Source of the DNA: a virus
Virus genome (UHGV): UHGV-0119120
Length of the DNA: 34,560 bases
Reading direction: 5' to 3' (one strand)
Shown here: in pieces, positions 12,890 through 28,952 of the stretch
Position numbering within the stretch: position 1 is the first letter of the stretch
How the letters are laid out: every line of letters starts with the position of its first letter
The notes under the pieces: model-generated
Database searches by the model: none
The model's input: only the letters and a program-made list of their open reading frames with translations
Told to the model about the DNA's origin: nothing
Position numbers and translations under genes: made by a program

Positions 12890-12930
12890 TTTCAGTTCCC
12901 TTCTGGCCCCTTTCGGGGCCGTTCTGGTTA

Positions 12931-13872: not shown

Positions 13873-13883
13873 TCGTCTGTTCC

Positions 13884-14756: not shown

Positions 14757-15183
14757 TATGTTCTCCTTCCAGACGGGCTATGCGTTCTTCTAGCTCAGTT
14801 ATTTCAATGACTTTCATCATGCTGGCTAGCCCATCAAGTATAACCTTACCTTGATCTGCTGATAACGTCCCAGCGGCTATAGCTTTCATCACCGAACGGG
14901 CCAGCGACTGTGGGTCTGAGTCATCGAGATCAAAGGGCGTTGGAGGCAATATTGGTTTGCTTGGCGGGACAATGCGATCGAGGATGATTCTGCACGCTGC
15001 CATATCGCCTTTTCTGGCTTTTTTTAGAATGGCATCCGCTGCATCCTCCGCCCCCTCCGCCAGAAGGTTACGCAATTCAGTAGCTGTTTTTGGTCTACCT
15101 CCGGGATTCCCGCTATTCCCCTTAGCAAACTGGCCGCGCTTATTCCGTGTTACCTGTTTTTGCCTGTTCTCAGGTGCTGCCAT
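14749..15183 (-). CDS. DUF5681-like phage protein
   Basis: 144 aa; N-terminal KRGQFAKGNSGNPGGRPK motif characteristic of DUF5681; coiled-coil C-terminus. Confidence 0.5.
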   Translation of the reverse strand: MAAPENRQKQVTRNKRGQFAKGNSGNPGGRPKTATELRNLLAEGAEDAADAILKKARKGDMAACRIILDRIVPPSKPILPPTPFDLDDSDPQSLARSVMKAIAAGTLSADQGKVILDGLASMMKVIEITELEERIARLEGEHNE

Positions 15184-15228
15184 TATTAATCACCTTCAAT
15201 AAGTTACAGATCCTCTCATGGGTAGCTA

Positions 15229-15801: not shown

Positions 15802-15863
15802 GCTGCTTACTCTCCGTTAGATCTGTCATTTAGTTAAATTTAACTGCGTTGGGGGAGTCTCCA

Positions 15864-16040
15864 TCACACACTCCCTTCAACGGCCATTGATTCCAGCGCC
15901 TTAGCCACCAGCCCACGTGCAATTTGGTGGATAGACGGCGCTACGCCAATATCGGAGCGCTGGCGTTCGCGCTCCTGGATCTTGCAGATTGCGGCGAACT
16001 GGTCGCCAGAGAGTAATACCGGCTTAACGTTTGGCTTTTT
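15864..16040 (-). CDS. hypothetical small basic protein (possible DNA-binding)
   Basis: Likely start MKKPNVKPVLLSGDQ inside the 95 aa track ORF; overlaps the stop of the upstream 64 aa ORF. Confidence 0.3.
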   Translation of the reverse strand, partial: KKPNVKPVLLSGDQFAAICKIQERERQRSDIGVAPSIHQIARGLVAKALESMAVEGSV

Positions 16041-16218
16041 CATCCTGTTCACTCCAGAACTTTGCATTCGCTTCGTTGACTTTTTCCAGATTGCGGCATT
16101 CGTTGTTGAAGTTGTTACGCATCCGCAATTGCTCGGCCTGTTCACGGCCAAAGAGTTTACGCCCGGCGCTTTGCGGGTTTCCTGCTGCTAATTTTGGGTC
16201 ATAAATAGCCATGCTCAT
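16024..16218 (-). CDS. hypothetical small protein
   Basis: 64 aa ORF packed between the 187 aa gene and the next small ORF. Confidence 0.3.
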   Translation of the reverse strand: MSMAIYDPKLAAGNPQSAGRKLFGREQAEQLRMRNNFNNECRNLEKVNEANAKFWSEQDEKAKR

Positions 16219-16224
16219 TGCTCC

Positions 16225-16788
16225 TTACTTCGTGCGATGCCAGAAACTGGCGTTGTCGGTGTTAATGCTGCGAATGGCGTCGCCTGTGGAGAGAATCTTC
16301 GGTGAAACGTTGTTAACTCGCATGTAGTCGCCAACCTGCTCCAGAACGTCGATAGCCTGATCAAGCTGAATCTCTGATAGCGGGGTCGGATGTACCGCAC
16401 TGAATGCCTCAGCGGGTGCGTAACGCAGCACATCAAGCGCAACAAGGCGAGGATCGGTATCAGGAAGGGCATTGTCATACTTTGGCGCTACAGCGCGTAC
16501 CAGGCGCATAAATTCAGCGTCCATTGACGTTGGCGCGGTGGAGGTCGTGGAAGCGCCGCTGCCACTGCGAGTAATCATGTCACTATCGCGGGTGTACATC
16601 CGACGCAGGCGGTCGCCAGTTGCAATGCGTGTTGCACGTTCCTGCTTAAGCGTCGTTGCAAGATTCGCAATGACGAGAGCCACAGGAAGCGAGCAGGTCA
16701 GCCTTTCGAACGTATCATCGGAGTAAGTCACCTCGACGGTACCACCAGCGTTATCACTTTCCAGATTAACATTGGTTATCTGTTTCAT
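16225..16788 (-). CDS. hypothetical protein, first gene of the island accessory module
   Basis: 187 aa ORF with AAGG RBS; preceded by a palindromic operator-like region. Confidence 0.45.
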   Translation of the reverse strand: MKQITNVNLESDNAGGTVEVTYSDDTFERLTCSLPVALVIANLATTLKQERATRIATGDRLRRMYTRDSDMITRSGSGASTTSTAPTSMDAEFMRLVRAVAPKYDNALPDTDPRLVALDVLRYAPAEAFSAVHPTPLSEIQLDQAIDVLEQVGDYMRVNNVSPKILSTGDAIRSINTDNASFWHRTK

Positions 16789-16823
16789 TGTTCATAACCT
16801 TTTGCGTTGTTTAAATTCTAATC

Positions 16824-16840
16824 ATTGCATAAATTGCAAT
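16824..16840. promoter_or_regulatory. perfect 17-bp palindrome ATTGCATAAATTGCAAT (candidate operator)
   Basis: Read directly; lies about 40-60 bp upstream of the 187 aa gene start, with a related half-site ATCATTGCG at 16851-16859. Confidence 0.35.
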
Positions 16841-16938
16841 GTTAGTAAATATCATTGCGTATATTGAAATGATAAATCGACGTGATACTATGACGGTGAT
16901 CCACCATTGTGTGATTGCATAAACATGGTTAACAAAAG

Positions 16939-16973
16939 CCCTCGCCTCTCCAGCGCGGGCTTTTTCTTTTCCG
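16939..16973. terminator. hairpin with flanking T/A runs (candidate bidirectional terminator between origin and accessory operon)
   Basis: AGCCCTCGC-CTCTCCA-GCGCGGGCT stem-loop (8/9 bp) followed by TTTTTCTTTT on the plus strand and preceded by AAAA. Confidence 0.4.
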
Positions 16974-17072
16974 CTCCGCAAAGTTGCCGTTTCCGCATAC
17001 TGTCGCTTAGGCGATGCCCCTCCAAATTCGTAATTACTCTCCGAAAAAAACTCTATAGATAAACAAAAACAT

Positions 17073-17365
17073 GTTGGTTCAGTTGGTTCAGTTGGTTCAA
17101 TTTGTAAAGATTGTTGTTTTATAAGGATTATTTCTTTCGGAGTGAACCAACAAAGCCCCATTTTGAACCAACAAACGCTATTTTCGTGTTGGTTCAGTGG
17201 GAAAGATTTACAGGCCAGCCAGAAAAGGGCGTTGGTTCAATAGCGGCATTTGTTGGTTCAAAATGGGGCTTTGTTGGTTCGGTGTTGGTTCACTTACAAG
17301 CATGTAAATGCATTAAATACATACACTTATATTAATTAAATAGTTACTGAACCAACTGAACCAAC
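17073..17365. repeat. iteron array, putative origin of replication
   Basis: At least 11 copies of GTTGGTTCA / TGAACCAAC, including three tandem copies at 17073-17099. A 29-bp perfect inverted repeat GAACCAACAAAGCCCCATTTTGAACCAAC sits at 17145-17173 and 17252-17280, with an AT-rich stretch at about 17300-17345. Directly downstream of the primase-helicase stop. Confidence 0.6.
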
Positions 17366-17390
17366 AAAAAAACATCTCGTATGTGTGTTT

Positions 17391-20171
17391 TTATTCTTCA
17401 CCCTCTATCTCGTCGGGTCGTAGCTGGAGCACATAAACGTTTATCTGGCGTCCATCAATTCGCGGGGATTTACGCTGATACCCCCTTCCGCTGGCTGGCG
17501 GTTTCAGCACCCCAGCCCCGGCCAGCACACGGGCAAACTGTTTCGCGTTGAATCCCTTCGCAATCTCACCTTCGAATGCTGCCGGGAACGTGTAGAACAC
17601 TATCGGATCAGCATCATGCGCCCCTTTCTGACGGTACCCGGCCAAATCCCGAATCGGCATGTCAGCCGGGTCATAAGGGTAAGGTGCAAATCGGCTCAGT
17701 CCGTATGCATTAAGAAACGCCTCTGCCTGCTCGATGATCTGCTTATGCTCACGGTTCCCCGTGCCAAACTCTTTCACCCAGGCGTTAAAGCCATGCTGGA
17801 TGGCGTCCCGGCTTTCCTGCTCCCCCCAGCCAGTGACAGGCATCCCCAGCACCAGCGCCGCCTCCAGAATAGCGAACCGCTCGCCTACACGATGAACCTG
17901 TTCGCCATAATCAGCAGGGATAAGACTACGCCAGCGCTCCTGCGCCGCTTTGACAGCTTGTTTTGCCTCCTGCTGGTGGCCTGCAAGCCATTTAATCCAT
18001 TCACGGCCTGCGGCTCCGTGGTTCGTCTGGTAAGCCTCTTTGAGTGCGTCGGCGTGTTGCTTCCCGTTCTGGTACTCATGGTGCGTTACTGATTTCTCCA
18101 TCGGTAAATTAAGCAATCGCACCAGTTGCCCGGCCTTAACTTTCAGCCCACCAGCAGAAAGAAACGTCTCAATGTCCATTTCCCCGGTACTGATCGCCAC
18201 GGTGCGCCAGCGCTTTAACTCACGGTTGCCGCCCTCCTTGGCCCCCTGTAGCTTTCCGGCACCGTTAAACAGCGTGTAAGCAGACGTAGCAACGTCTTTG
18301 GCGCTACTGCCCTGCCCCACTTCATCCAGCGGTAACAGGCTGTCGTTATGCGCTTCCGCTTCGTTGGCGATACCCAGCGCTGTACCGTACCAGGTAAGGC
18401 GCAAGGCATCCGGTTCACCGTATAAACTGCTGGCAATGTTGGCGGTGGTTGTCTTCCCTGCGCTGGACTGCTCGAAAAGATGCACGCCGAACCCGTCAGC
18501 GCCAACAAGCCCGATCAGCGGCGCAGAAAGCGCAGCAGCAACACCCAGCATCATTGACGGGTTTCCCAGCGCAAGACGCGCCACCGAATCACGCCAGCTT
18601 TCCGGCGTTCCACTGACGGTATAGCCACCAGCCGCCGCACTCCGACCACTGAATAACAGCGGTATCTCTGGCTCACCAATAACATCACCATCCGGCATGA
18701 TGTACGCCCCGTTGTGCCAGCCTGTGGTGTGGCTGATCTGCCATTCCTTGCCGCTACCAGTTCGCTGCAGCCAGTCGGCCAGAATTGCCCGCAACGATGG
18801 TTTGGTTGTCACACTGACACCGCCGTTTTTCAGCGTGCGCCATCCCTCACGGTCGCCAATGTCCTCCCATGGAAGCGCACGGGTAACTTGCCCCCGGTTG
18901 CCGGGGACGTCCCAACGCAGGATCAGAAAGCGCTGTCTGGCGTTATCACTCCCCGCACCAGCAATCTCCAGCGGAGAGCATAGCCACGCCTCGGTATTGA
19001 TAATTTCTCCTGTGTCTTTGTCCACTTTCGGGGTGATCCAGTGAATGCCATCCGCACGGCTCTCTACTCGCGGTTTCAGATCGTCGTCGATACCAAGTTT
19101 TTTCTTGCCGCCGTCGATAGCTGTCAGTGTCGCACCCACTTTCTTACCCTCCGGTTGATACATTGAGTCGTTAAATGCTGCTGTGGCCGCTTCGAGGCCG
19201 TATTGCTGGTGGTAGTCGTTCCAGTCCGCTTTATAGTCCACTGGTGGCATGGAAACCCAGCCAGAAACGGCTTTCGCGGCTTTCTCTGCGGCCTCCTTGC
19301 CAGTGTTAACTTTCACTCCTTTAATTCCGTCACTTTCGCCCATCTGGTCGTTATCTGCGGCAATGATGATTTGTGCCTGTGGGTACTTCCGGCGCATCAC
19401 TTCGGCAACGGGTAGCAGGTTGCCCGCGTCAATTGCTGCCACTGCCAGCGCGTCCGGGCGCATCAGGTGAACTGAAAGGGCCGTCGCCAGCCCCTCGGCA
19501 ATTAAAACGCTCTGCGGCGATTCTGGCGCGTTTACGGCATGATATGCCCCGCGCTTTGCTGAACCTGTCAGGAGTCGCTTCTCTCCCTGCGGTGTAATGG
19601 TTTGCGCTGCTGCCACTGCGCCGGATTCGTCCACCAGCTCCAGCAATAACGAACCATCAGGCATAACCGGATAGTTAAACCCGGTCAGCCCTTTTGATTG
19701 CAGGTAATCAGATTCGCCCTGTGTGGCACTCTGGCGCATTCCGGCATACAGACGGGCAAACGTAGCCCTTCGCTGCTCTGCGTCCCCTGCTGCCTGTTTC
19801 TGGCGCTCCTGCTCACGCTGCTGGCGGTCAGCTTCCAGTTGCTCCCTTCTATGGCTCGCTGCCACCGGGTCGGATTGCGCTGCCAGGTAATCAATACCCA
19901 GCACGTCAGCGGCAAGCTGTGCCGCCTCCGTAGTGTCGCAGTTGTTAACCCGCTTGATTAAATCCAGCCCGTCACCAGCGCCACACTGGTTGCAGATAAA
20001 GCTACCGCGCCCGTTGTCGTCGAATCTGAAACGGTCTTTTCCACCACATGCAGGGCATGGAGAATGGCGGCGCGATGAATCAGGCACGTCGATAGACAAC
20101 CCAGCCAGCACATAAGGCCAGCGCCCTGCTGCGGCGCTGGTCACTTCGCGGATAAGGTCGATATTACGCAT
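17391..20171 (-). CDS. primase-helicase (zinc ribbon + Toprim primase + P-loop NTPase)
   Basis: Likely start MRNIDLI with AGGAGG RBS. N-terminal CPACGGKDRFRF...CNQCG zinc ribbon; Toprim-like acidic motifs (LIAEGLATA, IIIAADNDQMGE); Walker A-like SSAGKTT. Confidence 0.8.
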   Translation of the reverse strand: MRNIDLIREVTSAAAGRWPYVLAGLSIDVPDSSRRHSPCPACGGKDRFRFDDNGRGSFICNQCGAGDGLDLIKRVNNCDTTEAAQLAADVLGIDYLAAQSDPVAASHRREQLEADRQQREQERQKQAAGDAEQRRATFARLYAGMRQSATQGESDYLQSKGLTGFNYPVMPDGSLLLELVDESGAVAAAQTITPQGEKRLLTGSAKRGAYHAVNAPESPQSVLIAEGLATALSVHLMRPDALAVAAIDAGNLLPVAEVMRRKYPQAQIIIAADNDQMGESDGIKGVKVNTGKEAAEKAAKAVSGWVSMPPVDYKADWNDYHQQYGLEAATAAFNDSMYQPEGKKVGATLTAIDGGKKKLGIDDDLKPRVESRADGIHWITPKVDKDTGEIINTEAWLCSPLEIAGAGSDNARQRFLILRWDVPGNRGQVTRALPWEDIGDREGWRTLKNGGVSVTTKPSLRAILADWLQRTGSGKEWQISHTTGWHNGAYIMPDGDVIGEPEIPLLFSGRSAAAGGYTVSGTPESWRDSVARLALGNPSMMLGVAAALSAPLIGLVGADGFGVHLFEQSSAGKTTTANIASSLYGEPDALRLTWYGTALGIANEAEAHNDSLLPLDEVGQGSSAKDVATSAYTLFNGAGKLQGAKEGGNRELKRWRTVAISTGEMDIETFLSAGGLKVKAGQLVRLLNLPMEKSVTHHEYQNGKQHADALKEAYQTNHGAAGREWIKWLAGHQQEAKQAVKAAQERWRSLIPADYGEQVHRVGERFAILEAALVLGMPVTGWGEQESRDAIQHGFNAWVKEFGTGNREHKQIIEQAEAFLNAYGLSRFAPYPYDPADMPIRDLAGYRQKGAHDADPIVFYTFPAAFEGEIAKGFNAKQFARVLAGAGVLKPPASGRGYQRKSPRIDGRQINVYVLQLRPDEIEGEE

Positions 20172-20505
20172 GGTTGCCTCCTGCCACGGTCGCGCCCATA
20201 TCATTAATCATGCTTTGCCATATCTCGCGCCCGACGTCAGTCAATCCGTCCTTAGTGACGCAACGATCAAGAAGCTCGATCCCCACGGTTTCCCACTGCG
20301 GGTAGAACACTTTCATGGCTGCCAGTGTGTAGCTATCGATCAGGCTGCGAACGCCTTTTACTCCATTGACGATTTCCACACGGACGGCGAGGCCGTCCGC
20401 ATCAACCATGAAATAGTCCCCGCCGCTGGTGGCGGTAATGTGGTTATACAGTGCCGACGCATACTTATTCGCCAGCGCATTCAGTCGGAAATTTTTAGTA
20501 ATCAT
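20164..20505 (-). CDS. hypothetical protein (replication operon)
   Basis: 113 aa ORF; stop overlaps the primase start (ATGCGTAA). Confidence 0.4.
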   Translation of the reverse strand: MITKNFRLNALANKYASALYNHITATSGGDYFMVDADGLAVRVEIVNGVKGVRSLIDSYTLAAMKVFYPQWETVGIELLDRCVTKDGLTDVGREIWQSMINDMGATVAGGNHA

Positions 20506-20514
20506 GTCGCCCCC

Positions 20515-21141
20515 TCAGTGCGCCAGCGGCATTTCAGGCCAGCCGTTTTCATCCAGTTCAGCTATAAAGCTGTTGTGAAGTTCAGCAAGCGTTTCACGCC
20601 CGAACGGGGTCAGCTCGCCGCGCTCCGTGTCGATCATGGCCTGATAAAAAACAATGGCGTTCGCTGTTCCCTGCTCAACGCCGTAGCGCTCAATCATTGC
20701 GCCCTCGATGTTGTTCGCCATCGCCAGCCGTTCAGCAAACGGGTAAACCACCATGCCCGCATTACCATTGGAGTAAATCGCCACCTGCGATGATGTGCCG
20801 TCAGCCTCAGTAACCGTGGTGGTGCCGTTCTCGCGCTTCATCTCAGAAACGAACGTCGCAGCAATCAGCCAGCGCCACATAGTGACGTTATGCTGCGCGG
20901 TGAAGTCGAACCAGCCACGCTCCCCGCCGTCAGCCACTGCCAAATGCAGGGCAAATCCTTCATCGGTCTTATTGTCATACTCACCCGCATCCAGACGTAC
21001 TACGACTTTTTCGTAGTTGATAAGAGCAACATGCTCATACATTCCGGCATCATTGCGGGTCATGATATTGACGCCGTGCGGTGTGGCTTCGGCGTGGAAC
21101 AGGTCGGGATTTCCCGGTTTAATGGTCAGTATATTGCTCAT
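20515..21141 (-). CDS. hypothetical protein (replication operon)
   Basis: 208 aa ORF, tightly packed in the operon. Confidence 0.45.
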   Translation of the reverse strand: MSNILTIKPGNPDLFHAEATPHGVNIMTRNDAGMYEHVALINYEKVVVRLDAGEYDNKTDEGFALHLAVADGGERGWFDFTAQHNVTMWRWLIAATFVSEMKRENGTTTVTEADGTSSQVAIYSNGNAGMVVYPFAERLAMANNIEGAMIERYGVEQGTANAIVFYQAMIDTERGELTPFGRETLAELHNSFIAELDENGWPEMPLAH

Positions 21142-21359
21142 GCTTTGCCCTCCCGATATTCACGCATTACATGGTCAGCTAGCTTGCTTTCAGCCTCGCT
21201 CATTGCTTCGGGCACACCGTGTAACAGCGTCAGAATGGAACCTATAAGGCGTGGTAAATCGGGATCTGTTTTATTGGTGGTGCTCTCCAGCCACATGGAC
21301 AAAACAGCCTGTGCCTGTTCAATCTGGCAGGCAGCATCAATCAGTTGTAACTGGCTCAT
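21138..21359 (-). CDS. hypothetical small protein
   Basis: 73 aa ORF with 4-nt overlaps to neighbours. Confidence 0.35.
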   Translation of the reverse strand: MSQLQLIDAACQIEQAQAVLSMWLESTTNKTDPDLPRLIGSILTLLHGVPEAMSEAESKLADHVMREYREGKA

Positions 21360-21619
21360 GCGCTGCCCTCCGCATCAATTCTGGCTATATCGACAATCGT
21401 CAGGACTTTACTAAGCCAGCAATACGCGATGGCTGCTTGCTCAACTTCGAGGAGTGGTAATAAATCGGTCATAACGTGAGCCAGCCCATTGCGGGCGCGG
21501 GTCATGCGTTCTGCGGTACGCTCTGCCAGCGTGAAAGAGTCAGGGTACGGCTGTTCGCGGGATAGCATCGCCTCGGCCTCAAGATCTGCAGGATGGCGAT
21601 AGATGGTATGAATGTTCAC
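21356..21619 (-). CDS. hypothetical small protein
   Basis: 87 aa ORF with GTG start, overlapping neighbours. Confidence 0.35.
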   Translation of the reverse strand: MNIHTIYRHPADLEAEAMLSREQPYPDSFTLAERTAERMTRARNGLAHVMTDLLPLLEVEQAAIAYCWLSKVLTIVDIARIDAEGSA

Positions 21620-21795
21620 GCTGCCACCTCCTGAATACGAGTAATACGAACGTGCTTATAACCGCCTTTATTCGCCAGTAGTTGCGCAGTCGATTTAGCT
21701 GTTTCTGGACTGGTGCTAGTCATGGTGTAGTGAATGCCGACGGTGTTACCGCGCTTGTTAACAGCGTATCCGTCGATCTGGAAGGTTTTACGCAT
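21616..21795 (-). CDS. hypothetical small protein (59 aa, below ORF-track cutoff)
   Basis: ATG overlaps the stop of the recombinase gene (AATGCGTAA); translation MRKTFQIDGYAVNKRGNTVGIHYTMTSTSPETAKSTAQLLANKGGYKHVRITRIQEVAA. Confidence 0.3.
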   Translation of the reverse strand: MRKTFQIDGYAVNKRGNTVGIHYTMTSTSPETAKSTAQLLANKGGYKHVRITRIQEVAA

Positions 21796-22666
21796 TTCCG
21801 ACCTCCATTGCTAAACGGGACTGGATAGCTGCCGCTTTACTGCCTAATTGCAGGTAAGTACGAGTTATCGCAGGGTTGCTATGACCCAGCATTTCAGAGG
21901 CCACTAATAGGCCCTGTTCGCCACCTGCGGACATGAGGTTAAAGGCGGCTATTTTGCGGCTTGAGTAGGCGCTCAGGCGCAATTTAGCGTTAATGAAACG
22001 GGTAAACCACGCCATGACGCCATGAAGTTTGCGCCAGATGGTTTGGCGAGTAACGCTACCTTCCAGACGTTGACAACGGTTACTTTCGATTTGAGAGCGG
22101 GAAAATACCAGGTCGTCCTCCACCAGATTCCGATCCTGACGGTCACGCAGCCGCTTGATAATGCCGGGGGGTAACTGTTTGGTGTCGTGCTTGACGTCAG
22201 CCTTAGCCACCAGCCCGAACACAATCGCCTGTTCTTCGTCGTTCATATCGGCGGCCAGTTCATCACAGCCGATACTATCCCACTTCATGTAGGCGATATG
22301 GTCAGCGGCGAGCCGCGCGGCGTCCTTGCGCTGCTGGCGCACAATTTCAATACCTTTGCGGGTTGCCCGCGCTTCTGCGGCTTTGGTCTGTTTGGAAACG
22401 ATAATTGTCGCCTGTCCAGTTTCCCAATTGATGCAGGAATAGCGCAGGTTGCAAACGTCGCTGGTACGCCAGCCGGTTACGGTCGCAATATCCCACCAGA
22501 GCAACACCCAATCGGGCTGTGTCTGCTGGATGCGCTCGCGTAGCTTGCGCTGCTCGTCACGGTCATAGACAGGGGTCATGGTGCGACTGCCCTTTGTGCT
22601 CGCCGCTTTAACGACATTGCCGCGCAGCTCGCGGGCTTTGGCTGTCAGAGTCTGGAGGTTAAACAT
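21788..22666 (-). CDS. tyrosine recombinase / integrase-like protein (second recombinase)
   Basis: Likely start MFNLQTL at 22666; C-terminal LGHSNPAITRTYLQ resembles the His...Tyr catalytic end of tyrosine recombinases; candidate box I Arg in TGWRTSDV. Confidence 0.55.
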   Translation of the reverse strand: MFNLQTLTAKARELRGNVVKAASTKGSRTMTPVYDRDEQRKLRERIQQTQPDWVLLWWDIATVTGWRTSDVCNLRYSCINWETGQATIIVSKQTKAAEARATRKGIEIVRQQRKDAARLAADHIAYMKWDSIGCDELAADMNDEEQAIVFGLVAKADVKHDTKQLPPGIIKRLRDRQDRNLVEDDLVFSRSQIESNRCQRLEGSVTRQTIWRKLHGVMAWFTRFINAKLRLSAYSSRKIAAFNLMSAGGEQGLLVASEMLGHSNPAITRTYLQLGSKAAAIQSRLAMEVGNA

Positions 22667-22847
22667 GACGCACCTCCGGCACTGGCAGACGTGCGGCCAG
22701 AGACAAAATAAAGTGCGGCGCAAGGATGCGGCGGGCTTCGCGTTCGGTCGCAGCCTCAACGGACAGACGGCAAGGTTTGGCTTTTTTATCGTGGCGATTC
22801 AGCGCGAGAAAGCGCCAGGTGAATTTTGAGTGTGCGGATCTAGCCAT
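22659..22847 (-). CDS. small protein upstream of the recombinase (possibly Icd-like)
   Basis: 62 aa ORF; stop overlaps the recombinase ATG (CATGTTTAA); ends ...FILSLAARLPVPE. Family assignment is from memory only. Confidence 0.3.
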   Translation of the reverse strand: MARSAHSKFTWRFLALNRHDKKAKPCRLSVEAATEREARRILAPHFILSLAARLPVPEVRHV

Positions 22848-23167
22848 TTTTAGCGGCTCCTAGAACATATTGAAGGAGTCTCGCCAGATGCTGCTAAACA
22901 TGGGTGGCGAGACGTGACGGGGTTAGCAGACTGGCGTTCTAGGAAACCAGCAGGCGTTAAGCCTCCCCACCACGCCCCGCCATAAATCGGGGGTATGGTT
23001 GGTTTTCGGGCGTAAAAATACCGCTATACGGAAATCAGCGGCTACCCGCTAGAACGTTCAGGCTGCTAAACCCGGCACCCGTTTTGTGAGGTGCGAAATA
23101 ATCATAACCACACTACCCCGTTAAGCGCAAGGGAAATATCCCCTGCGCCCACAATGCAAACTTGTTA

Positions 23168-24238
23168 TTAGTACCCGCGAGAAGCGTAAACTCGTGCCAT
23201 GCCAGCCCAATGAGAGAAAAGAATTTCCCACTTAATTGGGTTGTAGGTAATACTTCCATCGACTGCGGCAGCATTCCATGCCCGATCAGAAATAGAGCTA
23301 TCTTTAGCAGTTTTCCCCCATTCAACAATATCCCTTGCTAAAGCCTGTACACATGCTCGACTGACTACCTTTTCGTCAACGTACGCCCCAACATCAGAGC
23401 ATGACTCCATACTCATGTTCAGGCTATTTTTAAGGGACTCCAGCCCGGCCACTGACATAAAGCGACGACCATTAGCGTATGCAACACCGTCATTCCTGAT
23501 AGTGAACTTAACAGTGTGGAATGCGTCAACAATCATCCGCTGCTCTGGCGTCGGGTTCTGCCATAGCACAAGGTTAATCTCTCTCTCAGAAGCTATTGAT
23601 TCTGCTTTCTCACGCTTAACTCGTGCATCCCGTTCTGCCTGGTATTGTTTTTGATTTTCATCATGAGCCTTTTGGTAACTAGAGGCTAATGCGTCTCTGT
23701 TTTTGGCAAATGCTGCAATGCTATTTTTGAAATCGCTTCTGCTAACCTTGTTTAACCCCATACTCCAGCGGTCATTTTCGTAATCATCATAAATGGCATC
23801 AACTTTTGCCGGATTACTCAGCACAGTCGCCAGATTAACCGGAATTTTAGCCATCTCGTCACTGATTCTCGCTACATGTTCGAAAGTCGATATAGAGCCA
23901 ACTTCATGACTCCCATACTCATGATAAGCGGCATAAAAAATTGGAATAGATTGAGGTTTTTCGTTCACTGACTTAATGATGCTTTTTTCATCACATGACT
24001 GTTCACCCCATTTGAAAACACTTTTCCCACCATTTTTGTATGTGTTGCAATCATCAATACCCAAACGAACCAGCGCATCCCATCCGGGCCGTTTCTTGTA
24101 ATCCTCGCTCTTGACAACATGCATTGTGGTTAGGGCTTTCGCAGGATCTAACTTGCCAGCGGTACAAGACACGATAGGAAAGGCCAGAGAAGCGCAGGCT
24201 GCTATCCTGAAAAGGCTCGTCAATCTTTCTTTTTTCAT
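23168..24238 (-). CDS. lipoprotein, unknown function (island cargo)
   Basis: 356 aa; N-terminal MKKERLTSLFRIAACASLAFPIVSC has a lipobox (IVSC); central Lys/Glu-rich coiled-coil segment; gene is visibly more AT-rich than its flanks. Confidence 0.55.
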   Translation of the reverse strand: MKKERLTSLFRIAACASLAFPIVSCTAGKLDPAKALTTMHVVKSEDYKKRPGWDALVRLGIDDCNTYKNGGKSVFKWGEQSCDEKSIIKSVNEKPQSIPIFYAAYHEYGSHEVGSISTFEHVARISDEMAKIPVNLATVLSNPAKVDAIYDDYENDRWSMGLNKVSRSDFKNSIAAFAKNRDALASSYQKAHDENQKQYQAERDARVKREKAESIASEREINLVLWQNPTPEQRMIVDAFHTVKFTIRNDGVAYANGRRFMSVAGLESLKNSLNMSMESCSDVGAYVDEKVVSRACVQALARDIVEWGKTAKDSSISDRAWNAAAVDGSITYNPIKWEILFSHWAGMARVYASRGY

Positions 24239-24402
24239 CGTCCTAATGCTCTTTCAAACCAAGAATGTAGGACATAGTAAATTGTGGTTAATGGCAAGTC
24301 GATATAAAGGCCGGGTTATTGGCTTCGGTGCCAATATCATTTCTCCGAAATTTCATAACGCCTGTAATCGCTCGTTTCCCCATCTTGGGGACATTTCAAA
24401 AC

Positions 24403-24523
24403 TGCGAATCAAAGTGCGAATGGAACTGCGAATTCGCAAAGAGAGAGCGCCGCTCAAAGCAGGCCGGATAAGGCTTCGCGGACATATTGCGAATGCGAAT
24501 CCACCAGAAACGAAACGCGAATC
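24403..24523. repeat. cluster of TGCGAAT heptamer repeats (candidate operator array)
   Basis: TGCGAAT at 24403, 24415 and 24427 (12-bp phasing), the third within the palindrome TGCGAATTCGCA; further copies at 24488, 24495 (GCGAAT) and 24517 (CGCGAAT). Lies 165-285 bp upstream of the lipoprotein gene. Confidence 0.4.
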
Positions 24524-25079
24524 ACCCATAAACAAAACCGATACGCAGGGAGCGTACTGCCCGTATTCAATCGGCCGAAAAGTCAGCCGATTAAAATCAT
24601 GCCCGGCTATCCCCTGAAATTTCAGGAGATCGAGAGCCACCAGCAGAGAACCGTTCATGCCATCGGTAACTTGCAGCCCGAAGCTCAAATCTGAGCGTTG
24701 ACCGCCAGCCAGAAGAAACCATTTTAAATCCCGCGCCTTCTCTTTGGATGAACAGGGTTACTCCCCGTAATGCTGTGAACTGCCACGATGATTCGGGGTT
24801 GTGTTGCGCTGGCCTTTGAGTCCCGCACAAACACTGACCCACAAAATTTTTGTAGGTGACTGGCCCTCTTGATGAGGTGCTGTTTTGCGTAACCCTTAAT
24901 GAGTTGTGCAAAGGCTCAACCCTTTAAAAGGGTTGCCTAACCACCGGCGATAGTAATAACCGCCAACCTATGAACACTATGAACACCTTTGAGCATTTTT
25001 CTATAAACATTCCACTACTGCCCTATTTGATGCCTTTCTCTGGCTGGCCTGTGTAAGTTACCGTTGCTGGGAACTGACA

Positions 25080-25115
25080 ATAAAAAAGGCTTGCCCCTCT
25101 CAGGTAACAAGCCTT
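25080..25115 (-). terminator. rho-independent terminator downstream of the AlpA-like gene
   Basis: Minus-strand hairpin AAGGCTTG-(14 nt)-CAAGCCTT followed by TTTTTT, about 20 nt after the stop at 25133. Confidence 0.5.
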
Positions 25116-25132
25116 GTCTATCGCTCTGGATC

Positions 25133-25345
25133 TCACTCACTACAGATTCCGCGCTTTTGGCTCTGTCTTCCGATCCACGCCTCCACCTCATCGCGATACC
25201 AGCAATTGCGGCCGCCAACTTTGAAGGGCATCGGAAAGCCGTTCCCCTCATCCTTCAGAAATTCATAGAACGCAGAATCAGAACGGTAGCGTAGACGGGC
25301 TTTAACTTCGACTTTGAGCAAAATATCACTGTTAGATATGGACAT
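25133..25345 (-). CDS. alpA: AlpA-family transcriptional regulator / excisionase-like protein
   Basis: 70 aa; ...GFPMPFKVGGRNCWYRDEVEAWI matches the AlpA helix-turn-helix pattern; GAGG RBS and two TATAAT-like elements upstream. Confidence 0.6.
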   Translation of the reverse strand: MSISNSDILLKVEVKARLRYRSDSAFYEFLKDEGNGFPMPFKVGGRNCWYRDEVEAWIGRQSQKRGICSE

Positions 25346-25400
25346 AAAAACCTCATTATATATTCGATATAATTATATATGATTTGAATAAAAAAAACGC
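25346..25400 (-). promoter_or_regulatory. AT-rich candidate promoter for the AlpA-like gene
   Basis: Minus strand shows TATAAT-like hexamers within 40 nt upstream of the start codon, between the integrase terminator and the gene. Confidence 0.3.
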
Positions 25401-25420
25401 ATTCCGGTTAGCTTTGGGCA

Positions 25421-25446
25421 TAAAAAAAGCTGGCTTAAAGCCAGCT
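25421..25446 (-). terminator. rho-independent terminator downstream of the P4-type integrase
   Basis: Perfect inverted repeat AGCTGGCTT-A-AAGCCAGCT followed on the minus strand by a run of 7 T. Confidence 0.55.
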
Positions 25447-25487
25447 ATACCCGTTTGAAATCATGATTATCCAGAAATGGATGTGCC

Positions 25488-26717
25488 TTACACAACCAGC
25501 CTCAAGCCCTTATCGCCGCTGGTCTCCAGTATTTCGCCACACTCTGCGGCCTCGATAAAGTCCCCCCACCATTGCATTAAAACCCGGCGTTTTTCCAGAT
25601 AGTCGCTACGGTTATAAACATTTCGAATCGCATCGGCGCTTTTGTGAGCGAGTGCAGCCTCAATCACATCAGGGTTGAACCCCTCGTCATTTAAAACTGT
25701 AGATGCCAACGCCCTGAACCCATGAGGAACAATCAGCCCTTTAAACGACGTTTTGTGTATCCCGGCCTGAGTCGCACAGCGTGAGATCGGCTTATTTTCT
25801 TTTCGCCATGAGGGGAAAACATAATCGCAGCGCTTCCACTTTTCGGCCTCTTTAAGCACGTTTATAGCCTGGCTCGATAATGGGACTACGTGGGGGCGCT
25901 TTCCTTTCATCCGGCTTGCAGGGATTTGCCAGATTGAGTTATCAAAATCAATCTCATTCCAGAGAGCGCCGCCAGCCTCCGAAGGCCGGACCATCGTAAT
26001 GATCTGAAATAATAATGCCAGCTTTGATGGCTCCCATAAGCTCAACTCGTTCCATGCGCTTAAAAATTCGGGCAACCGCTCTTTCTGTAAAGTCGCTCTT
26101 GGCTCGTTTTTTTCAGCCGGGAATGCTTTACCAATTTTCGATAGCGGGTTGTGCTCAATAACCCCAATGTTTACCGCATAATCCATTATGGCGTTGATGG
26201 TAATAACCATTTTCGTAAGCGTTGATGGCCTTTCCCTGAAAGGTTTAAAAGCCTGAATAGTATCGGCTGCGTTTATTTTATGTACCGTGGTATGCCTAAA
26301 AATCGTGGAAAGATGCTTCAACGTCACATTGTGCGATTCAAGCGTGTTGCTTCTCGCACCTTCTTTAATCTTGATTTTTAGCCATTCATCGGCAACGGCC
26401 TGAAATGACTGCGCGTACATTTTACGCTGTTCATTCCTGGCATCTTTTTTGACTTCGTTCGGATCTATCCCTCGCGCTACCATACGGCGCAGTTTCGAAC
26501 GTTCCTCCCTCGCTTCGGACAAAGTAAACTCCGGGTATCGTCCAATAGTATAGGTTTGTCTCTTCTTCGTTACCGGGTGTACATACCGAAAACGCCATGA
26601 CTTACCGCCCCGGCTTGTGATGTAAAGCAACAAACCGAAACCATCGTGCAAACTGAAATCCTTGCCCTGTGCCTTCGCGCTTTTCACTTCGACGCTAGTT
26701 AGTGGCCTAACAATCAT
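25488..26717 (-). CDS. int: P4-type tyrosine integrase
   Basis: 409 aa; N-terminal ...LHDGFGLLLYITSRGGKSWRFRY is the typical arm-binding (DUF4102-like) signature of P4-family integrases. Confidence 0.75.
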   Translation of the reverse strand: MIVRPLTSVEVKSAKAQGKDFSLHDGFGLLLYITSRGGKSWRFRYVHPVTKKRQTYTIGRYPEFTLSEAREERSKLRRMVARGIDPNEVKKDARNEQRKMYAQSFQAVADEWLKIKIKEGARSNTLESHNVTLKHLSTIFRHTTVHKINAADTIQAFKPFRERPSTLTKMVITINAIMDYAVNIGVIEHNPLSKIGKAFPAEKNEPRATLQKERLPEFLSAWNELSLWEPSKLALLFQIITMVRPSEAGGALWNEIDFDNSIWQIPASRMKGKRPHVVPLSSQAINVLKEAEKWKRCDYVFPSWRKENKPISRCATQAGIHKTSFKGLIVPHGFRALASTVLNDEGFNPDVIEAALAHKSADAIRNVYNRSDYLEKRRVLMQWWGDFIEAAECGEILETSGDKGLRLVV

Positions 26718-26931
26718 TCAACACCTCTCTGGCTACCATGTAATGCAAACGGCGCATGATTCTCTTTCTAGTCCCTCATGTACCGAATCAAAGCGAAATC
26801 CGGCGAATAAATCCGCACATGTTCGGAGTGTCATTTTTATGGTTCAGGCCAGTAACGCCGTATGATTCCGAACGATAACGCACTGATTAATAGATATTAG
26901 TTGCATAAGGTACAGATATGCAGTCATTGGA

Positions 26932-28164
26932 TTATCCTTTGCGGTTAGACCAGAAGTCGGCGTTTTGTTTGTTCAGGGAAGCGATGCTGGTCATGCCCAT
27001 ATTTGGACGTTGTGCATCGCCCGTGGTGCTGCGGGTGTTTCGCCCTTTGGCAATCTCAGACACGGCGTTAAACGCCATATCGACCGATTGCTTGGGCAAT
27101 TTGCGGATATCTGCATCACCGACAACCTGGCGAACCAGTGTTTTGTCAGCGGCGGACAGCACATCACGTTTGAACGCGGTCGGTTTCACCTTACGGCTCA
27201 GATCGATACCCGGAACGATAACTTCGGCACGATAAGCAGCGTCACCGGTAATCGTGGTTTCCTCTTCGTCGTCCTCACCGTCGCCGGTAGGGTCTTTGTT
27301 ATCTTTGCCGTCAGGCTTATCGTCGTTATCGCCCGTTGCAGTACCTTCCAGCTTAGCCAGCAGGGCTTTGAGCAAGGTTTTGATATCGTCCTCGCCGTCG
27401 CCGGTTGGCTCTCCGCCCATTTCCGGCTTTTTGTCCGGCAATGGTTGCTGCGGTGAAAGGTTAATGTTGAGGTTAACGCCGCTCGGCAGATCCCCTTCGT
27501 CACCCGTTACCGCCGCTGGCGCAGAGTCCAGCAGTTCGTTCATGGTGTCAGCGTCACCCGTTTTGATGGCCGTGCGCATGCGGGTCCACCAGCTTTTCTT
27601 TTGATTTGCCATTGTGTCTCTGTCTCCAATTGCACAACGATTTCCGGCTCTGCCTTTAGGGACAAGAGCCACATGGTTTCCGGTGATATCGACCTGCTCG
27701 GCTTTTCCGGGTTCGGTCTGCTCGTACTCAGCGTCATAGCCGCACGACACTTCGCGCAGACCATCTTCGATCAGCTGAATGGCGCTTTCGTCTTTGACGA
27801 TAAGGTCAGCCAGCATCCAATCAGACTGATCACCTGTCCCGCGCCGAACGTTCTGAAGATGCCCGACCGCAAGCTCTTTCCAGTTCTCGGGGTTGACCAG
27901 CCGCACATTCCCGTTTTCATCTTCAGGATGCAGGATCGTGATGCTCATCCCTTCGAATGAGGCGAGCGTGGCCGGATGGAATACCTGCTCAGGAGAACGC
28001 GTGACGACTATTTCACCGAACTTATCGGGTTTCAGTTTTGGCAGGTCATCAGCACCATAGAGCTGCTTACCTGTTCGTCCTATCGGCACGTCTTTGCACA
28101 GCAACGAGCCGTCAGCCAGCTGATAGCGGGTTTCCCCCAGCCGGGTATTGAAAAAATATTTCAT
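26932..28164 (-). CDS. head scaffold/protease-like protein (DUF2213-like)
   Basis: 410 aa with acidic repeat region (GDGEDD...GDGEDDEEE) typical of scaffolding; follows the minor head protein gene. Confidence 0.5.
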   Translation of the reverse strand: MKYFFNTRLGETRYQLADGSLLCKDVPIGRTGKQLYGADDLPKLKPDKFGEIVVTRSPEQVFHPATLASFEGMSITILHPEDENGNVRLVNPENWKELAVGHLQNVRRGTGDQSDWMLADLIVKDESAIQLIEDGLREVSCGYDAEYEQTEPGKAEQVDITGNHVALVPKGRAGNRCAIGDRDTMANQKKSWWTRMRTAIKTGDADTMNELLDSAPAAVTGDEGDLPSGVNLNINLSPQQPLPDKKPEMGGEPTGDGEDDIKTLLKALLAKLEGTATGDNDDKPDGKDNKDPTGDGEDDEEETTITGDAAYRAEVIVPGIDLSRKVKPTAFKRDVLSAADKTLVRQVVGDADIRKLPKQSVDMAFNAVSEIAKGRNTRSTTGDAQRPNMGMTSIASLNKQNADFWSNRKG

Positions 28165-28178
28165 GGTTTACCTGCGAT

Positions 28179-28952
28179 TCAGGCGAGATAAGAATGAGGG
28201 TTGGGGAAGACGATTTCTTTGTAACAGCGGCAGTTCGGGAGCTCGCCAGCGTGACCGGTCATGCCGTCAAGCGTTGGAGGTCGGCCCCATTCGACAAACT
28301 TCCCTTCCATCTCTCGATGAGAATGCCGGACGTCGCCATCTTCGGCTGTACGCCAGATATAACCATTCGAGCCGATTGACAGCGCACGCGCCTGATCCAG
28401 TGCACCGGTTGCGCGCCCAAGCTCAGTCCGGGCGATAAGGTTCGCTCGTGAGCGTGACACGTCACCGGAAGCAGCTATCTCTTTCGCGAATGGCTCAGCG
28501 CGGCCACCAGTTACTACAGCCTCGATGGCCTTGTTCTGAATGTCATACACCCGATCGGCGGCCTCAAGAGGCAGAGATTTGATGTACTTAATTTGCTCGG
28601 CGACGATGGATTTCATCACCTGGCCTACCGGGGCGCGGTCGACCATGTTGCGTAGTTCTGCGCTGATGTTCCGACTGTGCTGACGCCACTGCTTTTCATT
28701 CTGGCGCGCAATGTCGGCGGTGAAGCTCTCAGCAACCTTAGTCGCCCAGGGGGTGATGATTTCGCTGTAGCGCTCCAGCGCATCCATTATTTCGGTGACG
28801 CTATCGTTTGAACCATCGTAGCGACCATTTACGATATCCCCGACCGCCCGCGCTATCTGCCGTAGGCTCGTTCGATATCGGATCTCCGCCTGGCGACTCT
28901 GGCGGTTTGTCGCCAAGTTCGCCGATGCCTGGCGGCGCTTCGTCTTCGGCAT
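28179..28952 (-). CDS. minor head protein (Mu F-like head morphogenesis protein)
   Basis: Position after the portal gene. The listed start overlaps the portal 3' end by about 150 nt, so the true start may be internal (for example the ATG at 28787). Confidence 0.5.
   Translation of the reverse strand: MPKTKRRQASANLATNRQSRQAEIRYRTSLRQIARAVGDIVNGRYDGSNDSVTEIMDALERYSEIITPWATKVAESFTADIARQNEKQWRQHSRNISAELRNMVDRAPVGQVMKSIVAEQIKYIKSLPLEAADRVYDIQNKAIEAVVTGGRAEPFAKEIAASGDVSRSRANLIARTELGRATGALDQARALSIGSNGYIWRTAEDGDVRHSHREMEGKFVEWGRPPTLDGMTGHAGELPNCRCYKEIVFPNPHSYLA

What the first reader, a model, noticed from the sequence alone, without database searches (positions are those of the whole stretch)
26909..26922. 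Candidate att core: imperfect 14-bp direct repeat at both island edges
On the minus strand TGCATATCTGTACC (plus 26909-26922) lies 10 nt after the DUF2213 stop, and TGCATTCCTGTACC (plus 14369-14382) lies 3 nt before the head gene start. That is 12/14 identity, and both copies sit exactly at the phage-proximal edges of the two junction regions, where a crossover core would be expected. Found by eye only; the match is short and imperfect.
Basis: seen in the sequence. Interest (0 to 1): 0.45.

Follow-up and report, generated by a model that had tools for sequence, protein, structure and literature searches.

The report
Attachment site of a phage-embedded satellite
The 14-base imperfect repeat is the real attachment-site core of a 12.5-kb phage satellite inserted into the head "cement" gene of a SEN34-like prophage; its integrase lineage is not the one published for such helper-embedded satellites.

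Summary
On its own it is close to chance. Comparison settles the question.

- Uninterrupted SEN34-like prophages carry one copy, TGCATATCTGTACC, as codons 2-7 of the cement (gp24-like) gene.
- Homology to the window ends exactly at the 3' edge of copy 1 and resumes at the 5' edge of copy 2.
- All 13 loci carrying this integrase share the same left junction.
- Two metagenome contigs carry the joined island ends (attP) with a single copy, TGCATTCCTGTACC.
- The AT/TC difference places strand exchange in the 7-bp CTGTACC. In attP this is centred between inverted TTGCAT/ATGCAA.

The island is 12,540 bp. It encodes an arm-type tyrosine integrase, an AlpA-like protein, a P4-type C4 immunity RNA, an Icd-like protein and a primase. 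It is co-oriented with the phage late operon and separates the cement gene from its start codon and ribosome-binding site.

This layout is known as a helper-embedded PICI (Tommasini et al. 2023). The integrase here is only 21% identical to that clade's founder. The target site, the non-lambdoid helper and the arm motif (GGACTA at -73/+138) also differ. All nine sampled relatives (41-63% identity) also sit in phage late-gene regions.

The parts
26909..26922 (-). attL core (B-O-P'): TGCATATCTGTACC, identical to attB. Likely overlap CTGTACC = 26915..26909.
   Evidence: Homology to the empty site ends at 26909. The same junction is present in 13 loci.
14369..14382 (-). attR core (P-O-B'): TGCATTCCTGTACC, identical to attP. 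Likely overlap CTGTACC = 14375..14369.
   Evidence: Homology to the empty site resumes at 14382. Same sequence in L002-L005. The attP junctions carry this TC version.
14378..14383 (-). Candidate core-type integrase site C: TTGCAT, 2 nt upstream of the overlap.
   Evidence: Perfect inverted repeat with ATGCAA, 11 nt apart and centred on CTGTACC, in the natural attP.
26901..26906 (-). Candidate core-type integrase site C': ATGCAA, 2 nt downstream of the overlap.
   Evidence: ATGCAA also starts the P' arm of the island carrying the 50%-identical integrase P0037.
26718..26908 (-). P' arm of attP, from the core to the int ATG. Contains GGACTA at 26774..26769 (+138) and GAATCAT-type repeats.
   Evidence: No promoter-like or terminator-like site on this strand.
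14383..14520 (-). P arm of attP, about 140 bp conserved among island variants with different cargo. Contains GGACTA at 14445..14440 (-73).
25488..26717 (-). Island integrase, 409 aa: Arm-DNA-bind_3 + Phage_int_M + Phage_integrase domains.
   Evidence: Found in only 4 of 5,426 E. coli genomes, always at this site.
25428..25446 (-). Terminator-like hairpin with a T-run, directly after int.
   Evidence: Consensus scan only.
25133..25345 (-). AlpA-like small protein (70 aa), candidate excisionase/regulator.
   Evidence: Weak Pfam Phage_AlpA hit, E=0.0065. The aligned gene in L003/L005 is annotated as AlpA family.
22900..23094 (-). P4-type immunity RNA region: C4 antisense RNA (22900..22987) and an isrK/seqA-like element (23014..23094).
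   Evidence: Rfam: C4 scores 75 bits against a gathering score of 45; isrK scores 44.6 bits, below its gathering score of 50.
22659..22847 (-). Icd-like cell-division inhibitor ORF (62 aa).
   Evidence: Position equivalent to the PGAP-annotated Icd-like gene of L002, which is 98% identical. No Pfam hit.
21788..22759 (-). Second, internal tyrosine-recombinase-like ORF.
   Evidence: Conserved in related islands.
17391..20204 (-). Primase (Zn-ribbon + Toprim + DUF927), P4 alpha-like replication protein.
14508..17161 (-). Variable late/cargo zone, including a DUF5681 protein (14749..15183) and ORFs of unknown function.
   Evidence: This zone differs between island variants.
26844..26927 (-). Severed 5' end of the cement gene: its ATG and 6 codons fused to island DNA (MTAYLYLMQLISINQCVIVRNHTALLA*).
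13884..14366 (-). Body of the cement (gp24-like) gene, readable only from Met-8 (160 aa against 167 aa in empty sites). No start codon or Shine-Dalgarno upstream.
26932..28164 (-). Phage DUF2213 (Pa193_gp24) head gene. In empty sites its stop lies 4 nt before the cement gene start.

Best explanation
The two copies are the attL and attR cores left by conservative site-specific integration of a 12,540-bp phage satellite (PICI/P4-like). The target is codons 2-7 of the cement (gp24-like, Pfam Phage_cement) gene of a Brunovirus (SEN34/Omnitron-like) prophage.

Shown here:
- attB is TGCATATCTGTACC.
- attP is TGCATTCCTGTACC.
- attL keeps the attB dinucleotide (AT) and attR keeps the attP dinucleotide (TC).

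Inferred from sequence:
- The island's arm-type tyrosine integrase, encoded 190 bp inside attL, exchanges strands within the 7-bp identity CTGTACC.
- It binds core sites TTGCAT and ATGCAA, which flank that segment symmetrically in attP.
- It binds arm sites containing GGACTA at -73 and +138, the same geometry as P4 attP.

Consequences of integration:
- It is co-oriented with the helper's late operon.
- It separates the cement gene from its start codon, its Shine-Dalgarno sequence and its upstream neighbour.
- It places int directly downstream of DUF2213 with no intervening terminator.

Inferred by analogy with published helper-embedded PICIs: helper late transcription reads into int and alpA, the island excises and restores a wild-type cement gene, and the 12.5-kb circle replicates from its own primase and is packaged by helper proteins.
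For: Empty site and breakpoints:
- One core copy in the uninterrupted junction, with breakpoints exactly at the repeat edges.

Occupied sites:
- Identical attL in the window, 4 E. coli genomes, Apirhabdus apintestini and 7 IMG/VR contigs.
- Identical attR in all 5 loci where it could be read.
- These islands and flanking phages differ by up to about 17% and in gene content, so they are not clonal copies.

attP and attB:
- attP junctions with a single TC core in two independent datasets.
- No empty site in 86 full-length E. coli matches carries the TC version.

Integrase and attP structure:
- Integrase domains are intact, and the gene occurs only at this site.
- attP dyad TTGCAT-N11-ATGCAA is centred on CTGTACC.
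- GGACTA lies at -73/+138 in this attP and upstream of int in 10 of 10 clade members; 0 of 2000 shuffles reproduce this.
- The P-arm copy is also found in a second member, at -86/+144.
- P4's annotated arm repeats lie at about -75/+133.

Effect on the helper:
- Cement gene decapitated.
- No terminator between DUF2213 and int.

Satellite gene set. Published precedent for the lifestyle: PMC10111431.
Against: - Nothing here is experimental. Cleavage positions, arm-site binding and read-through transcription are inferred.
- The repeat by itself is near chance level.
- One of the two attP contigs (OGVK01015064.1, L075) shares only about -54..+93 of attP. It lacks both GGACTA arms and any nearby integrase, so it may be a chimera or another element.
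- The other attP contig ends 48 bp past the core. It cannot distinguish a free circle from a tandem array.
- No capsid-size-redirecting or packaging gene was recognised in the island. Its DUF5681 protein is unrelated to the helper's small terminase. Helper dependence is therefore by analogy.
- A terminator-like hairpin after int could block rather than pass late transcription.
Confidence: 0.87

Rival explanations
1. The core is a genuine historical att site, but the island is now a fixed, immobile passenger inherited vertically with the prophage.
For: Only 4 of about 90 closely matching E. coli prophage sites are occupied. All occupied sites show the same AT/TC arrangement, as one ancient event would give. 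Some related elements sit in truncated prophages, for example L102.
Against: attP junctions exist in two datasets. The integrase ORF is intact in all copies, at 94.6-99.9% DNA identity. Islands with very different cargo share the same ends. The flanking phage is 98.8% identical to phages with empty sites.
Confidence: 0.08
2. The 12/14 repeat is a chance match, and the island was acquired by illegitimate or homologous recombination with boundaries elsewhere.
For: Weak statistics for the repeat alone. Longer chance repeats lie nearby.
Against: The breakpoints against empty sites coincide with the repeat edges to the base. The same holds in 13 loci. attP carries exactly one copy.
Confidence: 0.01
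3. The repeat is a target-site duplication made by a transposase.
For: Direct repeats do flank the element.
Against: No transposase or terminal inverted repeats at the ends. The copies differ in a fixed attB/attP pattern. A joined-ends form with one copy exists. A tyrosine integrase lies next to the end. All insertions are at one site.
Confidence: 0.01
4. The element integrates as described but is phage cargo (a defence or moron island that rides inside the phage genome), not a satellite that parasitises it.
For: No recognisable capsid, size-redirection or terminase gene in this variant. The cargo zone is variable.
Against: None of 50,697 phage records contains the island. Composite size of about 53 kb, against 40.7-41.9 kb for SEN34 and Omnitron, should exceed head capacity. 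It has its own primase, P4-type immunity RNA and AlpA-like gene. Other variants carry captured late genes such as DUF2280 and baseplate genes. It disrupts a helper structural gene.
Confidence: 0.1

Closest known systems
Helper-embedded PICIs (HE-PICI, founder Eco567.11capE; Tommasini, Mageeney & Williams 2023, PMC10111431)
   Same: - A satellite about 11-16 kb long sits inside a late gene of its presumed helper prophage and is co-oriented with it.
- The att identity block is short (7-12 bp), and attP carries no replacement sequence, so the late gene stays broken until excision.
- The gene order is int, AlpA, immunity RNA (C4/isrK), DUF4222-type small genes, primase, variable late zone.
- attP has a motif about 80 bp upstream and about 135 bp downstream of its centre.
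   Different: - The integrase is only 21% identical (68.6 bits) to 11capE Int, against the paper's 400-bit inclusion cut-off.
- On a rough NJ tree it is closer to tmRNA-type and P4 integrases than to 11capE.
- The target (Phage_cement codons 2-7) is not among the 14 published sites and is absent from the held supplement text (one file stored cut).
- The helper is a non-lambdoid Brunovirus.
- The arm motif is GGACTA, not the doubled TGTATTGC.
Satellite phage P4 (NC_001609)
   Same: - Arm-type (Arm-DNA-bind_3) integrase at the element's end, next to attP.
- attP geometry with arm repeats at about -75/+133.
- C4/CI-type immunity RNA, an alpha-like primase, and a size about 30% of the helper's.
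   Different: - The integrase is 31% identical.
- P4 integrates into a tRNA-Leu gene and restores it; this element breaks a phage gene.
- No sid, psu, delta or epsilon homologues were recognised.
- The arm motif differs (GGGGGCA in P4).
Classical Gram-negative PICIs (e.g. EcCICFT073)
   Same: An int, alpA, primase, late-zone layout and presumed dependence on a helper prophage.
   Different: They sit at chromosomal sites and interact with helpers in trans; this one is embedded in the helper.
Regulated gene integrity elements (e.g. B. subtilis skin, Listeria phi10403S in comK; reviewed in PMC7192596)
   Same: An integrative element splits a gene, and precise excision restores it.
   Different: Here the interrupted gene belongs to another mobile element, and the regulation would serve the satellite rather than the cell.

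Membership tests
Tyrosine-integrase att site (attL/attR core) | Exactly one copy in the unoccupied target, with homology breakpoints at the repeat | tested here: met
   AR_0119, SEN34 and Omnitron have one copy; the breakpoints fall at 26909 and 14382.
Tyrosine-integrase att site (attL/attR core) | Joined element ends (attP) carry one copy | tested here: met
   IMG/VR 3300045988_113726 and OGVK01015064.1. The latter is only partly matching.
Tyrosine-integrase att site (attL/attR core) | Integrase gene with an intact catalytic domain adjacent to one end | tested here: met
   the Phage_integrase domain spans residues 210-373, with RPSEA, HGFRA and YNRSDY motifs seen in the alignment.
Tyrosine-integrase att site (attL/attR core) | 6-8 bp overlap identical in attP and attB, flanked by inverted core-type sites | tested here: met
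   The AT/TC partition puts the crossover in CTGTACC. TTGCAT-N11-ATGCAA is centred on it. The actual cleavage points are not testable here.
P4-family attP architecture | Arm-type repeats on both sides of the core, about 75 bp on the far side and about 135 bp on the int side | tested here: met
   GGACTA at -73/+138, against P4's annotated arm repeats at about -75/+133. Binding was not tested.
HE-PICI (Tommasini et al. 2023) | [quoted passage not shown] | tested here: met
HE-PICI (Tommasini et al. 2023) | PICI zones: integration (int, AlpA), Bro/immunity RNA, replication (primase), late | tested here: met
   No Bro-N domain was detected in this variant. The AlpA hit is weak.
HE-PICI (Tommasini et al. 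2023) | Integrase belongs to the 11capE clade (at least 400 bits to 11capE Int) | tested here: not met
   68.6 bits, 21% identity. All clade relatives score at most 96 bits.
HE-PICI (Tommasini et al. 2023) | Doubled tgTGTATTGCa motif at -81 and +132 of attP | tested here: not met
   Only single 7/8 matches in reverse orientation, at -97 and +166.
HE-PICI (Tommasini et al. 2023) | One of the 14 mapped sites in cognates of lambda late genes | tested here: not met
   The core, its reverse complement, the accessions, DUF2213 and Phage_cement are all absent from the paper's held text and supplements; one supplement file was stored cut.
P4-like satellite (core set int, alpA, alpha, epsilon, delta, sid, psu) | Presence of sid, psu, delta and epsilon | tested here: inconclusive
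   No such hits among the 14 island ORFs scanned with Pfam and/or PHROGs. Small ORFs were not all scanned.
Functional phage satellite | Helper-dependent induction, packaging and transfer | not testable with these tools
   Needs induction and transduction experiments.

The most novel reading that the evidence does not exclude
This integrase represents a second, so far undescribed clade of arm-type tyrosine integrases with a tropism for prophage late genes.

- The eight closest sampled members, this one included, share at least 45% identity with each other; two further relatives (P0055, P0085) sit at 39-45%.
- Identity to the published HE-PICI clade is 21-26%.
- On a rough tree the clade is nearer to tmRNA-type CP4-57-like and P4 integrases than to that clade.
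- All nine sampled relatives plus this one sit co-oriented in phage late regions, at seven or more different targets. Targets include cement, major capsid, baseplate, gpA terminase, the TerS/TerL junction, portal, and lambdoid head-tail genes.
- The phages include lambdoid and SEN34-like myovirus-type phages.
- The clade shares its own arm motif, GGACTA.

Helper-embedding would then have arisen at least twice and would not be restricted to lambdoid helpers.
Probability: 0.6. Interest if true: 0.65.

Novelty: new variant of a known kind. Interest (0 to 1): 0.55.

Why it matters
It gives a base-precise att site for a satellite that lives inside its helper's head-gene operon. That makes the system directly testable: PCR primers for attP and attB, and strains ABWA45, EC2001, ET791 and ECONIH5.

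More broadly, helper-embedding was thought to belong to one integrase clade acting on lambdoid phages. A second, distantly related clade doing the same in lambdoid and SEN34-like phages would argue that selection for cis-coupling to helper late expression drives the tropism, rather than a peculiarity of one integrase lineage.

There is also a practical point. Such nested elements inflate prophage calls and break structural genes, so prophage and satellite annotators misread them.

Tried and rejected
- **Repeat statistics alone.** These were not decisive.
- **Vestige of the DUF2213 3' end in the island's right end.** I considered this because TTTTGGACTACACGCAAA resembles TTCTGGTCTAACCGCAAA. The score is at the null mean, and the shared part is explained by the GGACTA arm motif.
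- **The published HE-PICI doubled motif TGTATTGC.** Absent from this attP.
- **Island DUF5681 protein as a small-terminase mimic.** No similarity to the helper TerS.
- **Origin of the second attP contig (L075).** Its flanks match nothing in E. coli complete genomes, and its ORFs are uninformative.
- **Right end of the related island in Enterobacter (L104).** No downstream homology to the empty site, so the right end could not be mapped. Its left breakpoint, at GCGCCTGATTA about 22 codons into a baseplate gene, was mapped against this window.
- **Related island in Raoultella (L102).** The prophage downstream of the island is missing.
- **Island in other collections.** No match in plasmids or in 50,697 phage records.

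Full report
**Observation**

On the minus strand TGCATATCTGTACC lies at 26922..26909 and TGCATTCCTGTACC at 14382..14369, 12/14 identical. Copy 1 starts 9 nt after the TAA of the 410-aa DUF2213 gene (26932..28164). Copy 2 ends 2 nt before the ATG of a 160-aa ORF (13884..14366).

As a bare repeat it is weak:
- 0.19 matches with up to 2 mismatches are expected per window, and a third, unrelated one exists at 10855..10868.
- It is the top ungapped alignment between the two junction regions (16/20 when extended to TGCATnnCTGTACCnnATGC), but 38 of 500 shuffles do as well.
- In wider flanks there are chance exact repeats up to 13 bp.

**What settles it**

A megablast of 12900..28200 found many SEN34-like prophages and phages in which the two flanks are contiguous. 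Examples are E. coli AR_0119 at 98.8%, Citrobacter phage Omnitron at 97% and Salmonella phage SEN34 (Brunovirus) at 90%. Four E. coli genomes have an island at the same place.

In the empty site the DUF2213 stop is followed by TCCA and then ATGAC-TGCATATCTGTACC-GGATGCC. This is the start of a 167-aa "structural cement protein Gp24" (MTAYLYRMPVG...). Alignment A1 shows that identity with the window's left junction runs through the last base of copy 1 and then stops. Identity with the right junction starts at the first base of copy 2.

The same attL (...ccaatgac TGCATATCTGTACC ttatgcaac...) is present in the window and in 12 other loci:
- four E. coli genomes: ABWA45, ET791, ECONIH5 and EC2001;
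- Apirhabdus apintestini CA-0114;
- seven IMG/VR contigs.

The same attR (...aatagcct TGCATTCCTGTACC ggatgcc...) is present in all five loci long enough to show it. These composites are not clonal. Integrase DNA identity is 94.6-99.9%. Islands are 83-98% identical in the shared parts, with different cargo. Flanking phages are 90-98% identical.

**The excised form**

A pattern spanning the predicted joined ends (AATAGCCTTGCATNNCTGTACCTTATGCAACTAAT) hit one IMG/VR contig and one metagenome contig.

IMGVR_UViG_3300045988_113726 reads phage, attL, about 12.5 kb of island, TGCATTCCTGTACC, then the first 48 bp of the island again, and there the contig ends. The attL and attR cores share at most 7 contiguous bases. 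An assembler therefore cannot have made this join without reads that span it. It reflects either a circle or a tandem.

OGVK01015064.1 carries the same central attP (about -54..+93), but its flanks differ and it lacks the arm motifs. I treat it as supporting but unexplained.

**Where strands cross**

- attB has AT and attP has TC at core positions 6-7.
- attL always has AT and attR always has TC.
- None of 86 full-length empty E. coli sites carries the TC form.

Exchange must therefore lie to the right of position 7 and to the left of the diverging dinucleotide after the core. That is the 7-bp CTGTACC, the usual length of a tyrosine-recombinase overlap (established knowledge; also stated in PMC10111431).

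Independently, attP has a perfect inverted repeat, TTGCAT/ATGCAA, 11 nt apart and centred exactly on CTGTACC. Outer dyads TAATAG/CTATTA and TGATTAA/TTAATCA surround it. attB keeps an imperfect version (cTGCAT...ATGCct). I read TTGCAT and ATGCAA as the core-type integrase sites. This is an inference.

**The recombinase and the arms**

A 409-aa integrase is encoded 190 bp inside attL (25488..26717). It has Arm-DNA-bind_3, Phage_int_M and Phage_integrase domains.

Its gene occurs in 4 of 5,426 complete E. coli genomes, each time at this site. It is absent from 72,556 plasmids, and the island is absent from 50,697 phage records.

The hexamer GGACTA lies on the int strand 21-57 bp upstream of the start codon in this element and in nine relatives. 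The per-region chance is 3-8%, and 0 of 2000 shuffles reproduce all ten. In this attP it lies at -73 (14445..14440) and +138 (26774..26769), co-oriented. In the E. coli island carrying integrase P0037 it lies at about -86 and +144.

Two comparisons give the same layout with different words:
- P4's annotated arm repeats (GGGGGCA-type) lie at about -75 and +133 of its core.
- The published HE-PICI motif lies at -81 and +132 (PMC10111431).

GAATCAT-like words are also enriched in the P' arms, 9 observed against 1.1 expected. Binding is not shown.

**The island**

It is 12,540 bp (26922 minus 14382), and all credible genes are on the strand of the phage late genes. In order from attL:
- int;
- a terminator-like hairpin (25446..25428);
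- an AlpA-like 70-aa ORF (weak Pfam hit, but annotated AlpA in L003 and L005);
- a 356-aa protein of unknown function;
- an isrK/seqA-like element and a C4 antisense RNA (75 bits), which is P4-type RNA immunity;
- an Icd-like ORF;
- an internal recombinase-like ORF;
- small ORFs;
- a Zn-ribbon/Toprim/DUF927 primase;
- a variable zone ending with a DUF5681 protein.

In other variants the variable zone holds DUF2280, an M41-like peptidase, an IS5, or captured baseplate genes.

The phage around it has the following genes:

| Function | Pfam family |
|---|---|
| Small terminase (TerS) | Terminase_2 |
| Portal | Phage_portal_3 |
| Head morphogenesis | Mu_F |
| Head protein | DUF2213 |
| Cement | Phage_cement |
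| Major capsid | Major_capside (DUF2184) |

Myovirus-type tail genes follow.

**Effect on the helper**

The cement gene's ATG, its Shine-Dalgarno sequence (AAAGGA, inside the end of DUF2213) and six codons stay at attL. There they are fused to a 27-codon island ORF. At attR the cement frame is closed by a TGA five codons upstream of the core and has no start before Met-8. Pfam aligns the 160-aa remnant from profile position 8-9.

No terminator-like or promoter-like site lies on the late-gene strand between DUF2213 and int. Read-through from the helper late operon into int is therefore plausible, but it is inferred.

Because the AT stays on the B side, precise excision would regenerate the wild-type gene. 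The composite (about 53 kb against 40.7-41.9 kb for SEN34 and Omnitron) should be too large for one head. The island is about 30% of helper size, as with P4 and P2. Both points are inference.

**Target range**

The core encodes part of the conserved N-terminus (YLYRMPVG). Three versions of the target were seen:

| Phage or prophage | Core sequence |
|---|---|
| SEN34, Omnitron and about 86 E. coli prophages | TGCATATCTGTACC |
| E. coli 2003-3014 and phage 606R2, the two sequenced examples from the 249 E. coli genomes at 80-90% identity | TGTATTTCTGTACC (overlap intact, left site changed) |
| Hafnia phage yong1 | AGCATATCTATACC |

All four occupied E. coli sites are of the first type. This gives roughly p = 0.005 by my hypergeometric estimate. 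The estimate assumes the whole 80-90% band carries the second core, and I checked this in only two sequences.

**Comparison with what is known**

[quoted passage not shown] They mapped 491 elements at 14 sites in cognates of lambda late genes. They showed excision of the founder 11capE after composite replication. They noted short identity blocks without replacement sequence, C4/isrK RNAs and a clade-specific doubled motif.

The present element has the same lifestyle and layout but fails three of that family's defining features:
- Its integrase is 21% identical (68.6 bits) to 11capE Int, against their 400-bit cut-off.
- The TGTATTGC motif is absent.
- The site and helper type are not among theirs. 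The core, its reverse complement, the accessions, DUF2213 and Phage_cement give no hit in the paper's held text or supplements; one supplement file was stored cut.

Full-text searches of the held library found no later primary report on helper-embedded satellites.

**A wider pattern**

A search of 5.8 billion proteins found relatives at 63%, 56%, 50-51%, 47%, 44% and 41% identity. All nine that I looked up lie directly downstream of, and co-oriented with, phage late genes:

| Integrase | Identity | Upstream phage gene |
|---|---|---|
| P0003 | 63% | Baseplate gene of a SEN34-like tail module; breakpoint about 22 codons into the gene homologous to window 995..2194 |
| P0007 | 56% | 153-aa stump of Major_capside |
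| P0010 | 56% | Region after TerS |
| P0042 | 47% | Region after TerS |
| P0033, P0043 | 50% | 333-335-aa stumps of lambda-type gpA terminase |
| P0037 | 51% | Lambdoid head-tail region |
| P0055 | 44% | Portal gene |
| P0085 | 41% | DUF6651/Mu_F region |

Each island has the int, 67-88-aa ORF, DUF4222, primase layout.

All of these integrases score at most 96 bits against 11capE Int. On a rough neighbour-joining tree the group is nearer to tmRNA-associated and P4 integrases than to 11capE. This suggests a second integrase clade with the same tropism. The tree is crude and the sampling is small, so I give this claim about 0.6.

**Verdict**

The element is a new variant of a known kind of system.

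Noticed in passing
L082-L104 (relatives of the integrase at window 25488..26717): All nine sampled integrases at 41-63% identity sit co-oriented in phage late regions. Targets include baseplate, major capsid, gpA terminase, the TerS/TerL junction, portal, lambdoid head-tail genes, and DUF6651. All score at most 96 bits against the published HE-PICI founder integrase. This may be a second late-gene-targeting clade.
   Followed up: partly
window 14440..14445 and 26769..26774 (minus strand); L082-L099 upstream of int: GGACTA, sometimes doubled 12 bp apart, lies 21-57 bp upstream of int in 10 of 10 clade members and at -73/+138 of this attP. It is a candidate arm-type site with P4-like geometry.
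   Followed up: partly
L075 (OGVK01015064.1) 590..750: A metagenome contig carries the central 150 bp of attP with the TC core. Its flanks are unrelated, it has no GGACTA arms and no integrase within 390 bp, and the flanks match nothing in E. coli complete genomes. It could be a chimera or a different element sharing the core module.
   Followed up: partly
window 22900..23094 (minus strand): C4 antisense RNA (75 bits) next to an isrK/seqA-like element (44.6 bits, below gathering). This is P4-type RNA immunity inside the island.
   Followed up: no
window 21788..22759 (minus strand): An internal second tyrosine-recombinase-like ORF next to the Icd-like gene. A 290-295-aa counterpart is present in relatives (L082, L083, L097, L099). 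Its role is unknown.
   Followed up: no
window 25428..25446 (minus strand): A strong terminator-like hairpin (8 bp, T7 tail) immediately after int. In the integrated state it would sit in the middle of the helper's late operon.
   Followed up: no
L076 and L078 (E. coli 2003-3014, phage vB_EcoM-606R2): A target variant, TGTATTTCTGTACC, with the overlap intact and the left site changed. It was seen in both sequences read from the group of 249 E. coli genomes at 80-90% identity, and no genome in that group has the island.
   Followed up: partly
window 14508..17161 versus L002-L005: The island's late/cargo zone is mosaic. This window has DUF5681 plus unknown ORFs. Other variants have DUF2280, an M41-like peptidase, an IS5 insertion, a TumE-like toxin-antitoxin pair near alpA, or five captured baseplate/spike genes (EC2001).
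   Followed up: no
L102 (Raoultella FTLF01000008.1) 16800..21230: A related island in a major-capsid stump is followed by bacterial genes (YcgJ, acetyltransferase, GntR). The helper is truncated downstream, so this is an apparently stranded embedded satellite.
   Followed up: no
window 27125..27137 and 14143..14155 (plus strand): An exact 13-bp direct repeat, ACCTGGCGAACCA, inside DUF2213 and the cement gene. It is longer than the true core and is a chance match, since both copies are collinear with the empty site.
   Followed up: yes
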